From: Alphaproteobacteria bacterium
Lineage (GTDB): Bacteria > Pseudomonadota > Alphaproteobacteria > GCA-2746255
Direction: 5' to 3'
Assembly: GCA_021776275.1 (NCBI GenBank)
Contig: JAJFGH010000074.1
Span: forward strand, 1-53,937
Length of the DNA stretch: 53,937 nucleotides
Program-made: the position numbers and the translations under genes
In this document: piece by piece, positions 11,557 through 12,414 of the stretch
Numbering within the stretch: the first letter of the stretch is position 1
Layout of the letters: every line of letters starts with the position of its first letter
The notes under the pieces: model-generated
Databases searched by the model: none
Told to the model about the DNA's origin: nothing
Seen by the model: the letters and a program-made list of their open reading frames with translations, nothing else

Positions 11557-12414
11557 TTATTTCTTCCGGTATTCTTCCGGCAGAAACATCAAATGGTCGT
11601 AATCTTCCGCGGCGGCATGGCAGGCAATGCAGAATTCGACCTTGTCGGAGCCTTTTCCGTTCGTCGTCCCAAGGATCTGCCCGTTCGGAAGGACCATCGT
11701 GTAGCGCCAATCCCCACTGGCCGGATTGAAGCCAGAGCCCATTTTCTCCATGACGAAAAGCGGCCCGATGGGCGAGGCGGCGGCCGCCCCACAAGGGTTG
11801 CATGGGTTGCAACTGTTTGCCGCGCATGGGTTTTTCGCCGCGCATGGGTTGCATGGGTTGCAGCCCTTTGCCGCAGCGGCTGTGAAGCTGTCTTTTACAA
11901 GGATGGCCCCTTCCGGCAACCGGCCGGCATCTTCGTATTTCCCGTAAGCGCCCGCCTTTGCATTGGCGTAATTGTTCACATAACGCCCGCCATGGGTGCC
12001 GGAATTGTAAGGGACGGTGTTGTAGCGCTTCCAGGTTTGATAGGTCGCGGCATAGGGAAGGCCGGATTTCTTGTAGGCCTTCATCATCCCATGCTTCTGG
12101 GCCTTATAAAGGGCCGCAGCTGCCGCGTCCGAAAGTTCCGGCCCCGCCGCTGCGCCACATGGACCGCAGGGGCTACAAGGGCCGCAGGGGTTGCAGCCCT
12201 TTGCCGCGCACGGGTTTTTTGCCGCGCAGGGGTTCTTCGCTGCACACGGGTTTTTGCTGCTGGTGCTTTTGGAATAGCCCGCCAACTGGTCGGCCTGCGC
12301 CGGGGGTCCGGCCAAGGTCACGCTTATCGCGATGACCCCTGCGCCAACCATCATGGGAAGCACGGTCCCCGATAGCAAAGCGGATTTGAGGGGTTTTTGG
12401 GAATCGGTCCGCAT
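11557..12414 (-). CDS. Cytochrome P460 family protein carrying two Cys-rich (N/G/S)PC repeat insertions
   Basis: 285 aa with a signal peptide. CIACH heme motif (nt 11617-11631) followed by [12 protein letters not shown]. Paralogous to 6101..6739. Repeat blocks [34 protein letters not shown] and [27 protein letters not shown]. Confidence 0.8.
   Translation of the reverse strand: [285 protein letters not shown]
11788..11868 (-). repeat. Coding tandem repeat 2: [24 protein letters not shown]
   Basis: Residues 183-209. It replaces a loop that is non-repetitive in the paralog at 6101..6739. Confidence 0.85.
12154..12255 (-). repeat. Coding tandem repeat 1: (KNPCAA)n / (G/S)PC units
   Basis: Residues 54-87 of the P460-like protein. 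The DNA shows near-tandem 18-nt and 9-nt units (gcgcacgggttttttgcc / gcgcaggggttcttcgct ...). Confidence 0.85.

What the first reader, a model, noticed from the sequence alone, without database searches (positions are those of the whole stretch)
11557..12414. Cytochrome P460-like protein decorated with (N/G/S)-P-C repeat arrays
There are two Cys-dense low-complexity arrays. The first is [34 protein letters not shown], just after the signal peptide. The second is [27 protein letters not shown], inserted into a loop that is an ordinary sequence in the paralog at 6101..6739. Together they add 16 extra cysteines (9 and 7) to a periplasmic heme protein.

The regular 3- and 6-residue Cys spacing suggests thiolate-based soft-metal or metalloid binding (Cu(I), As(III), Hg) or polysulfide binding. 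The gene lies directly downstream of an ArsM-like methyltransferase that itself ends in CGSDGECC. The underlying DNA is a set of near-tandem 9- and 18-nt units, so repeat number could vary by slippage.
Basis: partly seen in the sequence, partly recalled or inferred. Interest (0 to 1): 0.6.

Follow-up and report, generated by a model that had tools for sequence, protein, structure and literature searches.

The report
Cytochrome P460 protein with polycysteine arms
This gene encodes an exported haem protein of the cytochrome P460 type carrying two floppy arms of repeated Asn-Pro-Cys units; it belongs to a large bacterial family that no searchable paper describes, and it travels with two unstudied partner genes rather than with the arsenic gene beside it.

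Summary
ORF 11557..12414 (minus strand, 285 aa) is a cytochrome P460-family haem protein with a CIACH haem site and Lys174 at the cross-link position. It carries two x-Pro-Cys arrays: 8 Cys after the export signal and 7 Cys in a loop. That makes 15 extra cysteines, not 16.

This scan has already noted the same module on other DNA. At least 1276 protein clusters and 522 species genomes encode P460 proteins with such arms. NPCAAK arms also occur alone or on other one-haem cytochromes in several phyla.

The loop array is rarer: 16 of about 120 relatives have one. It replaces a 10-residue hairpin that starts three residues after the cross-link Lys. Copy number differs among close orthologues.

The ArsM-like neighbour is adjacent only within this genus. 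Elsewhere it pairs with the arsenosugar genes ArsS and TIGR04282.

The recurrent partners are DUF6969 (7 kb away here) and the exported CPLC protein DUF3179 (next gene downstream).

No paper in the searchable library describes the arms. Their chemistry is untested. My best guess is a tethered poly-thiol redox or ligand buffer coupled to the haem; metallothionein-like metal binding is the main rival.

The parts
11557..12414 (-). Gene for a 285-aa exported cytochrome P460-family protein with two polycysteine arms
   Evidence: ORF. PF16694 E=9.5e-8, 32.9 bits against cut-off 27. AF2 core pLDDT above 90, and Foldseek top 21 hits are all P460/c'-beta.
12292..12414 (-). N-terminal export signal or signal anchor (aa 1-41). 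It has basic K7/K10, a roughly 25-residue uncharged stretch with a conserved Pro, and then AQA. The K-x-LLS-x-T-x-x-P motif is shared across the family and with paralogue 4763..5884.
   Evidence: Alignment A1; BLASTP N-terminal match to paralogue 4763..5884; median longest uncharged stretch of 22 aa in 121 relatives. Whether it is cleaved or stays as an anchor was not testable.
12154..12255 (-). N arm, K54-G87: three NPCAAK units followed by [15 protein letters not shown]; 8 Cys
   Evidence: Sequence; TRF periods 18 and 9; pLDDT below 50; present in nearly all of the 120 top homologues.
11893..11895 (-). Codon of Lys174 (LVKDSF), the position of the haem-Lys cross-link in cytochromes P460
   Evidence: Aligns to Lys78 of McP460 (PDGAILVK) by hmmsearch and hhalign and to Met79 of NeCP-beta 7s5o. 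Residue identities come from PMC11928373 Table 2. Lys in 118 of 119 relatives.
11788..11868 (-). Loop arm, K183-G209: [27 protein letters not shown]; 7 Cys. It is inserted in the beta-hairpin that follows the cross-link Lys.
   Evidence: Alignments. The loop is 39 aa here against 10 aa in 99 of 104 relatives without a loop array. pLDDT below 50. TRF period 9.
11617..11631 (-). CIACH haem c attachment motif (C262, C265, H266)
   Evidence: Invariant columns in A1 and A2; aligned to the CMGCH motif of McP460.
10438..11451 (-). DUF3179 gene, 105 bp downstream on the same strand. It encodes an exported protein with a conserved CPLC motif and is a probable operon partner.
   Evidence: PF11376 E=3e-83. 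It follows the P460-arm gene in L006, L007 and G113. It is within 8 kb of NPCAAK genes in 16 of 119 loci from four classes or phyla. It is present in 31 of 34 genomes with the P460-arm family against 37 of 167 without. CPLC is kept in 17 of 19 copies, and one copy has an in-frame stop at the first Cys. It is listed as a UxxC/T selenoprotein family in PMC9312934.
3784..4560 (-). DUF6969 gene (His-cluster motif EHGHFH, no signal peptide), the most consistent partner of NPC-arm proteins. Here it is 7 kb from the target and divergent from paralogue 4763..5884.
   Evidence: PF22308 E=4e-89. It is within 10 kb in 30 of 83 P460-arm loci and within 8 kb in 54 of 119 NPCAAK loci. It is in 28 of 34 genomes with the family against 20 of 167 without, and in about half of those 28 it lies within 3 kb.
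6062..6739 (+). Arm-less P460-family paralogue (48% identity). It has Arg instead of Lys at the cross-link position and a 25-aa loop with 2 Cys.
   Evidence: It is sister to the window's clade in the tree (98/89 support, long branch).
4763..5884 (+). Haem-less P460-like paralogue (no CxxCH) with an extra N-terminal domain and the same N-terminal export motif
   Evidence: BLASTP 31% identity, E=4e-26. No Pfam hit. Conserved next to DUF6969 in L007 and G113.
12670..13902 (-). ArsM-like SAM methyltransferase ending in CGSDGECC, 255 bp upstream. It is a genus-specific neighbour and not part of the conserved module.
   Evidence: NF040538 371 bits (cut-off 500) and PRK11873 192 bits (cut-off 263). 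Neighbourhood tests. A promoter-like site lies in the gap at 12584..12556.

Best explanation
The gene encodes an exported cytochrome P460-type haem protein: beta-sheet fold, CxxCH haem, Lys at the cross-link position. It carries two intrinsically disordered polycysteine arms built from x-Pro-Cys units. One arm lies between the export signal and the haem domain. The other replaces a short hairpin that starts three residues after the cross-link Lys.

I read the arms as tethered multi-thiol elements that cycle between thiol and disulfide, or thiol and adduct, states in the periplasm. They would buffer or carry reactive soft species such as oxidants, electrophiles, sulfane sulfur or NO-type species, and possibly soft metals.

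In this reading the very low-potential P460 haem and the co-encoded exported CPLC protein DUF3179 are the arms' redox partners. The cytoplasmic DUF6969 protein is a conserved partner of unknown role. The ArsM-like gene next door is a lineage-specific neighbour.

Shown: fold, motifs, arm anatomy, disorder prediction, family size, copy-number turnover and partner-gene statistics.

Inferred: export, free or redox-cycling thiols, and electron exchange with the haem and with DUF3179.
For: Identity:
- Pfam, fold and Lys evidence.

The arms:
- AF2 predicts them disordered, with pLDDT below 50 for residues 10-83 and 183-211.
- In 121 relatives they hold 5-54 Cys (median 26). Composition is A 24%, C 21%, P 16%, N 14%, K 9%, with almost no acidic, aromatic, His or Met residues.
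- Cys-Cys spacings of 3, 5 and 6 all occur, which argues against one rigid scaffold or one fixed metal site.
- Odd Cys counts (64) are as common as even ones (57), which argues against a fully paired structural disulfide set.

The arms as an independent module:
- Stand-alone signal-peptide-plus-arm genes exist in this genome (C42:8121-8351) and directly upstream of P460-arm genes in L003 and L005.
- Among 142 [12 protein letters not shown]-bearing ORFs in 119 loci, 71 are small stand-alone proteins, 50 carry one CxxCH but are not P460, and 8 are P460. Fusion to catalytic haem domains suggests coupling to haem redox chemistry rather than plain storage.

Partners are redox-type rather than metal-efflux-type:
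- DUF3179 has a conserved CPLC motif. One copy has an in-frame stop at the first Cys. The family is a published UxxC/T selenoprotein family. Co-occurrence is 31/34 against 37/167 genomes, with adjacency in several classes.
- MsrB, DsbA-like and AhpC/Redoxin genes recur nearby.

Thermodynamics:
- Published P460 haem potentials of -340 to -424 mV (PMC11928373) lie below typical CxxC disulfide couples (my knowledge). A substrate-reduced haem could therefore reduce arm disulfides.

Functional precedent:
- A periplasmic sacrificial peptide with a recycling enzyme: MrpX/YedY (PMC4436054).
Against: - No experiment exists on any member.
- Nothing shows that the thiols are free in an oxidising periplasm, or that haem and arms exchange electrons.
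- No DsbD/CcdA-type reductant supply was seen in the window.
- The composition equally fits a metallothionein-like metal binder.
- DUF3179 lies within 10 kb in only 2 of 83 P460-arm loci, so it is not an obligate neighbour.
- DUF6969's function is unknown, and it may point to post-translational modification instead.
- hhalign places the invariant Phe220, not a carboxylate, at the distal-base position (low confidence). The haem may therefore not oxidise hydroxylamine at all.
Confidence: 0.4

Rival explanations
1. Metallothionein-like periplasmic binder. The arms chelate soft metals or metalloids (Cu(I), Hg(II), Cd, Zn, As(III)) through thiolates. The haem domain is only a carrier or a sensor. 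In this genus the neighbouring ArsM-like enzyme might then make it an As(III) trap.
For: - 21% Cys, Lys-rich, no aromatics, and CxxC the commonest spacing.
- One relative (L003) sits beside an ECF sigma/NrsF pair, a system known to respond to metal and oxidant stress (PMC11626156 and PMC4436054).
- Exported Cys peptides that buffer copper exist, namely the bufferins.
- The ArsM-like gene has the Cys motifs I recall as the As(III) ligands of ArsM (sequence; my knowledge). It stays adjacent in three genomes of the genus.
Against: - No metal-resistance, efflux or ars genes lie in the window.
- ArsM adjacency is absent outside the genus.
- No ArsS partner is present in this genome.
- Periplasmic Cu(I) sites usually use Met and His, which the arms lack (my knowledge).
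- Variable spacing and copy number argue against defined clusters.
- A plain metal buffer does not explain repeated fusion to catalytic haem domains.
Confidence: 0.3
2. Precursor for post-translational modification. The arm cysteines are chemically converted before or after export, as bufferin and oxazolin cysteines are, by DUF6969 and, where present, an FGE-like enzyme. The product would be a metallophore or reactive group rather than plain thiols.
For: - DUF6969 is a cytoplasmic His-cluster protein tightly linked to arm genes: 54/119 and 30/83 loci, and 28/34 against 20/167 genomes.
- FGE-sulfatase-family genes sit between DUF6969 and the P460-arm gene in 19 of 83 loci.
- Doubled CNPC units contain C-x-P, which resembles the start of the FGE target motif (my knowledge).
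Against: - This genome, which is 89% complete, has no FGE-family and no MNIO gene.
- NPCAAK units lack the C-x-P-x-R motif.
- DUF6969 has no known activity and no literature.
- Here DUF6969 is 7 kb away and paired with the arm-less paralogues.
Confidence: 0.15
3. Structural element. The N arm is a flexible stalk between a membrane anchor and the haem domain, and the cysteines only stiffen or cross-link it through disulfides.
For: - The N-terminal hydrophobic stretch is long enough for an anchor, with a median of 22 uncharged residues.
- Ala/Pro/Lys-rich composition resembles known flexible linkers (my knowledge).
- Arm length is highly variable.
Against: - A second arm is inserted inside the catalytic domain next to the cross-link Lys.
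- Arms occur as stand-alone secreted peptides.
- Asn-Pro-Cys is strictly kept while spacers vary.
- Odd Cys counts are as common as even ones.
- Conserved dedicated partner genes exist.
Confidence: 0.1

Closest known systems
Cytochromes P460 (Nitrosomonas europaea NeP460, PDB 2JE2/2JE3/8GAR; Methylococcus capsulatus McP460, 6HIU/9HRK; Nitrosomonas sp. AL212 NsP460, 6AMG)
   Same: Same beta-sheet fold: Foldseek probability 1.00 and TM-score up to 0.56 on the target. C-terminal CxxCH haem site. Lys at the cross-link position within the identical context P-x-G-A-I-L-V-K. Periplasmic location inferred.
   Different: Only about 12-20% sequence identity. It has an extra N-terminal helix and two polycysteine arms, which are never mentioned in the 2025 superfamily review. 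The distal carboxylate needed for NH2OH oxidation is not evident, because Phe220 aligns to Asp102 (low confidence). In that respect it would be closer to the inactive NsP460 type.
Cytochromes c'-beta (Thermus thermophilus 7EAD, M. capsulatus 6HIH, N. europaea 7S5O)
   Same: Best Foldseek hit is 7EAD, E=8.9e-6, TM-score 0.70 on the target. Best sequence hit is 7S5O. The window's arm-less paralogue 6062..6739, with Arg at the cross-link site, is formally of this non-cross-linked type.
   Different: The target has Lys, not Phe or Met, at the cross-link position. No c'-beta protein carries Cys arrays.
Bufferins (BufA precursors with MNIO BufB and DUF2063 BufC; PMC11626156)
   Same: Sec-exported Cys-bearing peptides or proteins in the periplasm, widespread and linked to stress. 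One P460-arm relative lies next to an ECF sigma/NrsF pair.
   Different: No MNIO gene in this genome. The arms are long x-Pro-Cys repeats rather than 4-12 fixed Cys. They are fused to haem domains. Their partner is DUF6969, not BufB/BufC.
SoxY carrier arm with the SoxAX haem enzyme (sulfur oxidation); resemblance from my own knowledge
   Same: A haem c enzyme acting on a cysteine presented on a flexible arm. NPCAAK arms are also found on SoxA/TsdA-type cytochromes: PF21342 in two hits and 50 one-haem non-P460 hosts.
   Different: SoxY has one Cys on a GGCGG tail on a separate folded protein. There are no sox genes in this window, and the haem here is P460-type.
MrpX/YedY hypochlorite-scavenging system of Azospira suillum (PMC4436054)
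   Same: An exported low-complexity peptide rich in one oxidisable residue, recycled by a periplasmic redox enzyme and under SigF/NrsF control. It is a functional analogy for arms plus DUF3179 or haem.
   Different: It uses methionine rather than cysteine, has no haem fusion, and shows no sequence relationship.
Metallothioneins (for example bacterial SmtA); from my own knowledge
   Same: Cys-rich and Lys-rich, aromatic-free, with CxxC motifs.
   Different: Metallothioneins are small cytoplasmic proteins with fixed Cys patterns that fold around metal clusters. The arms here are exported tandem repeats of variable number and spacing.

Membership tests
Cytochrome P460 / c'-beta superfamily (PF16694) | Profile match above the curated cut-off | tested here: met
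   PF16694 32.9 bits against cut-off 27, aa 124-275.
Cytochrome P460 / c'-beta superfamily (PF16694) | Characteristic beta-sheet fold | tested here: met
   AF2 core pLDDT above 90. Foldseek ranks 1-21 are all P460 or c'-beta entries, with probability 0.91-1.00.
Cytochrome P460 / c'-beta superfamily (PF16694) | Single C-terminal CxxCH haem c site | tested here: met
   C262-I-A-C265-H266 is invariant in 60 relatives and aligned to the McP460 CMGCH motif.
Cytochrome P460 proper (cross-linked haem) | Lys at the haem cross-link position (Lys70 NeP460, Lys78 McP460; PMC11928373 Table 2) | tested here: met
   K174 aligns to the Lys of McP460 ILVK by hmmsearch and hhalign. Lys in 118 of 119 relatives. 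Formation of the covalent bond itself was not testable.
Cytochrome P460 proper (NH2OH-oxidising) | Distal proton-accepting carboxylate (Glu96 NeP460, Asp102 McP460) | tested here: inconclusive
   hhalign puts the invariant Phe220 opposite Asp102. The nearly invariant Glu223 lies three residues on (probability 19%). A structure with haem is needed.
Cytochrome P460 proper (NH2OH-oxidising) | Distal capping residue (Phe or Arg) | tested here: inconclusive
   The invariant T-H141-G-x-R144 motif lies where HMM alignments place the Arg50 cap of McP460, within 2 residues. The register is uncertain.
Cytochrome P460 proper | 460-nm ferrous Soret band and hydroxylamine oxidase activity | not testable with these tools
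   Needs purified protein.
Bufferin / MNIO-modified RiPP metallophores | MNIO (DUF692, PF05114) maturase encoded with the precursor | tested here: not met
   No PF05114 match in the window's genome, which is 89% complete. None in the window.
Metallothionein-like metal binder | High Cys content in CxC/CxxC patterns without aromatic residues | tested here: met
   Arms are 21% Cys, spacing 3 is commonest, and there are no aromatics or His.
Metallothionein-like metal binder | Metal-thiolate cluster formation | not testable with these tools
   Needs ICP-MS and titrations.
Arsenic methylation or organoarsenical module (ArsM-linked) | Conserved linkage between the ArsM-like gene and the Cys-arm protein | tested here: not met
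   Adjacent only in the window's genus (window; L007, which is the same record as L285; and G113). Counts are 1/83 P460-arm loci, 0/80 ArsM-like loci and 1/119 NPCAAK loci. Its usual partners are ArsS (45/80) and TIGR04282 (32/80).
NPC-arm / DUF6969 gene module (undescribed; noted before by this scan) | x-Pro-Cys repeat arm on an exported protein with a DUF6969 gene nearby | tested here: met
   Arms. DUF6969 at 3784..4560, 7 kb away. Association measured independently here: 30/83 loci, 54/119 loci, and 28/34 against 20/167 genomes.

The most novel reading that the evidence does not exclude
The x-Pro-Cys arms, the exported CxxC/UxxC protein DUF3179, the cytoplasmic His-cluster protein DUF6969 and a low-potential haem domain (P460-type here, SoxA/TsdA-type elsewhere) together form an undescribed periplasmic poly-thiol system. 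In it the haem performs redox chemistry directly on arm cysteines: reduction of arm disulfides, or oxidative coupling of NO-, N- or S-species to the thiols. The loop arm, inserted three residues after the haem-Lys cross-link, feeds thiols into the active site.
Probability: 0.2. Interest if true: 0.85.

Novelty: new variant of a known kind. Interest (0 to 1): 0.55.

Why it matters
Cytochrome P460 is studied as a small model for hydroxylamine oxidation and N2O/NO release. Only six members have structures, and the 2025 review of the superfamily does not mention cysteine-repeat forms.

Hundreds of marine and groundwater Alphaproteobacteria carry a Lys-bearing P460 domain decorated with up to 54 arm cysteines. 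The same arm occurs alone or on other cytochromes in Beta- and Gammaproteobacteria, Rokuibacteriota and Nitrospinota.

If the arms are a thiol buffer or carrier serviced by a haem and a CxxC protein, that would be a new way of handling oxidants, reactive nitrogen or sulfur species, or soft metals outside the cytoplasmic membrane. It would also give a first functional handle on two large DUF families, DUF6969 and DUF3179.

Cultured carriers exist, including Stutzerimonas stutzeri CLN100, Aromatoleum anaerobium, Azoarcus sp. Aa7, Hahella sp. and Psychromonas arctica. The question is therefore directly testable.

Tried and rejected
1. Bufferin-type maturation. There is no MNIO/DUF692 gene in the genome.
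2. FGE-like modification in this organism. There is no PF03781 gene in the genome, although one is present in 19 of 83 related loci.
3. SigF/NrsF control here. There is no NrsF gene in the genome. A GGAAC-N16-CGAA site lies 73 nt upstream of the gene, but it is not conserved: 4 of 62 upstream regions against a 2.8% background.
4. ArsM as a functional partner. It is not conserved outside the genus, and there is no ArsS in the genome.
5. Independent double origin of the loop array. The free tree shows two starred carrier clades (4 and 12 rows). However, the AU test does not reject a single clade (p=0.58), so this is unresolved. The first tree used a faulty core extraction and was redone.
6. Link between arms and the cross-link Lys. 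Lys is also present in arm-less neighbours, so there is no correlation.
7. Even Cys numbers as a sign of obligatory disulfide pairing. Not found: 64 odd against 57 even.
8. Literature. There were no hits for NPCAAK-type strings, for DUF6969, or for 'cytochrome P460' together with 'cysteine-rich' and 'repeat'.
10. NCBIfam gave no family for the target, DUF6969 or DUF3179.
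Full report
**What is there.** On the minus strand, 11557..12414 encodes a 285-aa protein with a good AGGAG ribosome-binding site. It starts with a basic stretch and a roughly 25-residue uncharged segment ending in AQA. This is an export signal or a signal anchor.

The N arm follows (K54-G87), made of three NPCAAK units and then [15 protein letters not shown]. After it come a helix and a beta-sheet domain. 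The second array (K183-G209, [27 protein letters not shown]) interrupts that domain. The protein ends with CIACH and a conserved tail.

The cysteines number 8 + 7 in the arms plus 2 at the haem site, 17 in all. The DNA shows 18-nt and 9-nt periodicities. A 60-nt piece of the loop array is 85% identical to a piece of the N array.

**Identity of the folded part.**
- Pfam PF16694 (Cytochrome_P460) matches above its cut-off.
- An AlphaFold2 model built on 60 relatives has pLDDT above 90 for residues 91-180 and 212-285, and below 50 for both arms.
- The 21 best Foldseek hits in the PDB are all cytochromes P460 or c'-beta.
- hmmsearch and hhalign align P-E-G-A-I-L-V-K174 to P-D-G-A-I-L-V-K of M. capsulatus P460. 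They align the same position to Met of N. europaea c'-beta. According to PMC11928373 Table 2, these are the cross-link Lys78 and its substitute Met79.
- Lys occupies this position in 118 of 119 relatives. The only exception is the window's own arm-less paralogue 6062..6739, which has Arg.
- The distal carboxylate required for hydroxylamine oxidation is not evident. hhalign puts the invariant Phe220 opposite Asp102, at low confidence.
- The cap position falls in the invariant T-H-G-x-R motif, with uncertain register.

By sequence this is therefore a P460-type haem protein. Whether it is a hydroxylamine oxidase is open.

**How common it is.**
- The protein search returned 1276 clusters at E<=1e-3. 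Nearly all of the 120 best carry N-terminal NPC/CNPC(AAK) arrays, with up to 57 cysteines per protein.
- 522 species genomes encode a relative. Most are marine or groundwater Alphaproteobacteria: Rhodospirillales, Kiloniellales, Sneathiella, Pelagibius and Minwuia.
- Across 121 N arms there are 5-54 Cys (median 26). Asn-Pro precedes two thirds of them.
- Cys-Cys spacings of 3, 6 and 5 all occur. Composition is A/C/P/N/K/G with almost no acidic, aromatic, His or Met residues. Odd counts are as frequent as even ones.
These were in Beta-, Alpha- and Gammaproteobacteria, Rokuibacteriota, Nitrospinota and others, including cultured strains.
- The host ORFs there are mostly small stand-alone secreted peptides (71) or one-haem cytochromes that are not P460 (50).
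- The window's own genome has such a stand-alone peptide on contig C42. It has 246 relatives.
- Stand-alone arm genes sit directly upstream of P460-arm genes in L003 and L005.

The arm is therefore an independent, mobile module. This scan has noted the same module before on other DNA. I re-measured the associations myself rather than relying on those notes.

**What is particular to this window: the loop arm.** In 99 of 104 relatives without a loop array, the hairpin after K-D-S-F is 10 residues long. In 16 carriers it is 29-80 residues with 3-13 Cys, and here it is 39 residues with 7 Cys.

The carriers form two well-supported clades of 4 and 12 rows. The AU test does not reject a single origin (p=0.58), so one or two gains remain open.

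Copy number turns over quickly:

| Genome | N arm Cys | Loop Cys |
|---|---|---|
| Window | 8 | 7 |
| G113 (same genus) | 6 | 9 |
| L006 | 11 | 8 |
| P0001 | 6 | 13 |
| L007 | frame broken | 12 |

Units also switch between NPCAA, NPCAAK and CNPC. This fits repeat slippage under selection for Asn-Pro-Cys.

**Gene context.** The ArsM-like methyltransferase 255 bp upstream scores below NCBIfam's ArsM cut-offs. It belongs to a family found in at least 563 species across many phyla. Its usual neighbours there are the arsenosugar radical-SAM protein ArsS (45 of 80 loci) and the TIGR04282 glycosyltransferase (32 of 80). None of those loci has a P460 gene.

It is adjacent to a Cys-arm gene only in the window's genus: the window, L007 (the same record as L285) and G113. 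The genome has no ArsS. A promoter-like site lies in the gap. The arsenic link is therefore not supported as a conserved feature.

Two other genes do recur.

DUF6969 (3784..4560, cytoplasmic, EHGHFH cluster):
- It lies within 10 kb in 30 of 83 P460-arm loci.
- It lies within 8 kb in 54 of 119 NPCAAK loci across three proteobacterial classes.
- In a sample of 201 Alphaproteobacteria it is present in 28 of 34 genomes with the family, against 20 of 167 without. About half of the 28 have it within 3 kb.

DUF3179 (10438..11451, the next gene downstream after a 105-bp gap, with a signal peptide):
- It follows the arm gene in L006, L007 and G113.
- It lies within 8 kb in 16 of 119 NPCAAK loci from Beta-, Alpha- and Gammaproteobacteria and Rokuibacteriota.
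- It is present in 31 of 34 genomes with the family, against 37 of 167 without.
- Its CPLC motif is kept in 17 of 19 copies. One copy has an in-frame stop at the first Cys. The family is listed as a UxxC/T selenoprotein family (PMC9312934), which marks the motif as redox-active.

Related genomes are not independent, so these ratios overstate significance. Even so, the enrichment over a random 8-kb window is of the order of a hundred-fold or more, by my rough estimate from the copy numbers.

Other recurrent neighbours of P460-arm genes are an FGE-sulfatase-family protein (19 loci), HAD (10), Sel1 (9), MsrB, TauD and DsbA-like (7 each), and in L003 an ECF sigma/NrsF pair and an AhpC/Redoxin protein. 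This genome has no MNIO, FGE-family or NrsF gene.

**Mechanism.**
*Shown:* a P460-type haem domain; two disordered, exported, Cys-dense arms with strict Asn-Pro-Cys units but free spacing and number; an independent arm module; redox-type conserved partners.

*Inferred:* the arms act as tethered poly-thiols that cycle between thiol and disulfide or adduct states. They would buffer or carry soft reactive species in the periplasm, and the haem and DUF3179 would be their redox partners.

Three points make the haem coupling plausible:
- The arms are repeatedly fused to catalytic low-potential haem domains.
- The loop arm is placed next to the cross-link Lys.
- The published P460 potentials of -340 to -424 mV lie below usual CxxC couples (my knowledge).

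MrpX/YedY (PMC4436054) and SoxY/SoxAX (my knowledge) are functional precedents.

The main rival is metallothionein-like binding of soft metals or metalloids. The composition allows it, and bufferins (PMC11626156) give a precedent, but the conserved gene context does not point that way. A modification-precursor role (through DUF6969 or FGE-like enzymes) and a purely structural stalk are less likely.

**Novelty and verdict.**
- No paper in the searchable library mentions these repeats, DUF6969, or Cys-repeat P460 proteins.
- The protein is a new variant of a known kind: a known haem fold bearing an undescribed module.
- This window adds three things to the family picture: the intradomain loop arm, the DUF3179 partnership, and a clear negative result on the arsenic link.
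- Interest is moderate to high for the family. It is moderate for this single instance, because the chemistry remains untested and the scan has already met the module elsewhere.

Noticed in passing
G000 contig C42:8121-8351 (+), outside the window: A 76-aa stand-alone gene of signal peptide plus arm (…[45 protein letters not shown]). It shows the arm exists as a separate secreted peptide in the same genome, and 246 relatives were found.
   Followed up: partly
window 4763..5884 (+): A haem-less P460-like paralogue (no CxxCH, no Cys at all). It has an extra N-terminal domain of about 170 aa with no Pfam match and the same N-terminal export motif. It is divergent from DUF6969 and conserved in L007 and G113. 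Similar haem-less copies sit between DUF6969 and the arm gene in L035 and L049.
   Followed up: partly
window 6062..6739 (+): The arm-less paralogue has Arg where 118 of 119 relatives have the cross-link Lys. Its hairpin is 25 aa with two Cys (KAC…FAC) instead of the usual 10 aa. In the tree it is sister to the window's arm-bearing clade.
   Followed up: partly
L007:10001-10400 (same-genus long-read MAG OZ252220.1): The orthologue's N arm is frame-broken: the reading shifts frame inside …AAKGC-TPV…/…YPCGPCGPCG. This is either a one-base assembly error in the repeat or a real slippage frameshift.
   Followed up: no
L146 (Acidobacteria MAG, a locus fetched through the ArsM-like gene): A DUF3179 copy next to an ArsM-like gene has an in-frame stop at the first Cys of the CPLC motif (W*PLC). 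It is a candidate selenocysteine form.
   Followed up: no
window 224..3728 (+): A PQQ biosynthesis operon (pqqB, C, D, E by sequence appearance) is followed by a small cytochrome c (CKACH). Further on, at 8190..10417, lies a GMC oxidoreductase with a twin-arginine small subunit. The GMC pair is absent from the syntenic region of the same-genus genome G113.
   Followed up: no
window 14153..19239: A caspase-like (peptidase C14-type, weak NF047832 match) exported 728-aa protein is followed on the opposite strand by a 960-aa exported protein. Both are unrelated to the finding.
   Followed up: no
L005/L028, L063 and 17 other loci: An FGE-sulfatase-family gene is regularly placed between DUF6969 and the (small arm gene +) P460-arm gene, often with MsrB, HAD and TauD genes behind it. 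This block is missing from the window's genome.
   Followed up: partly
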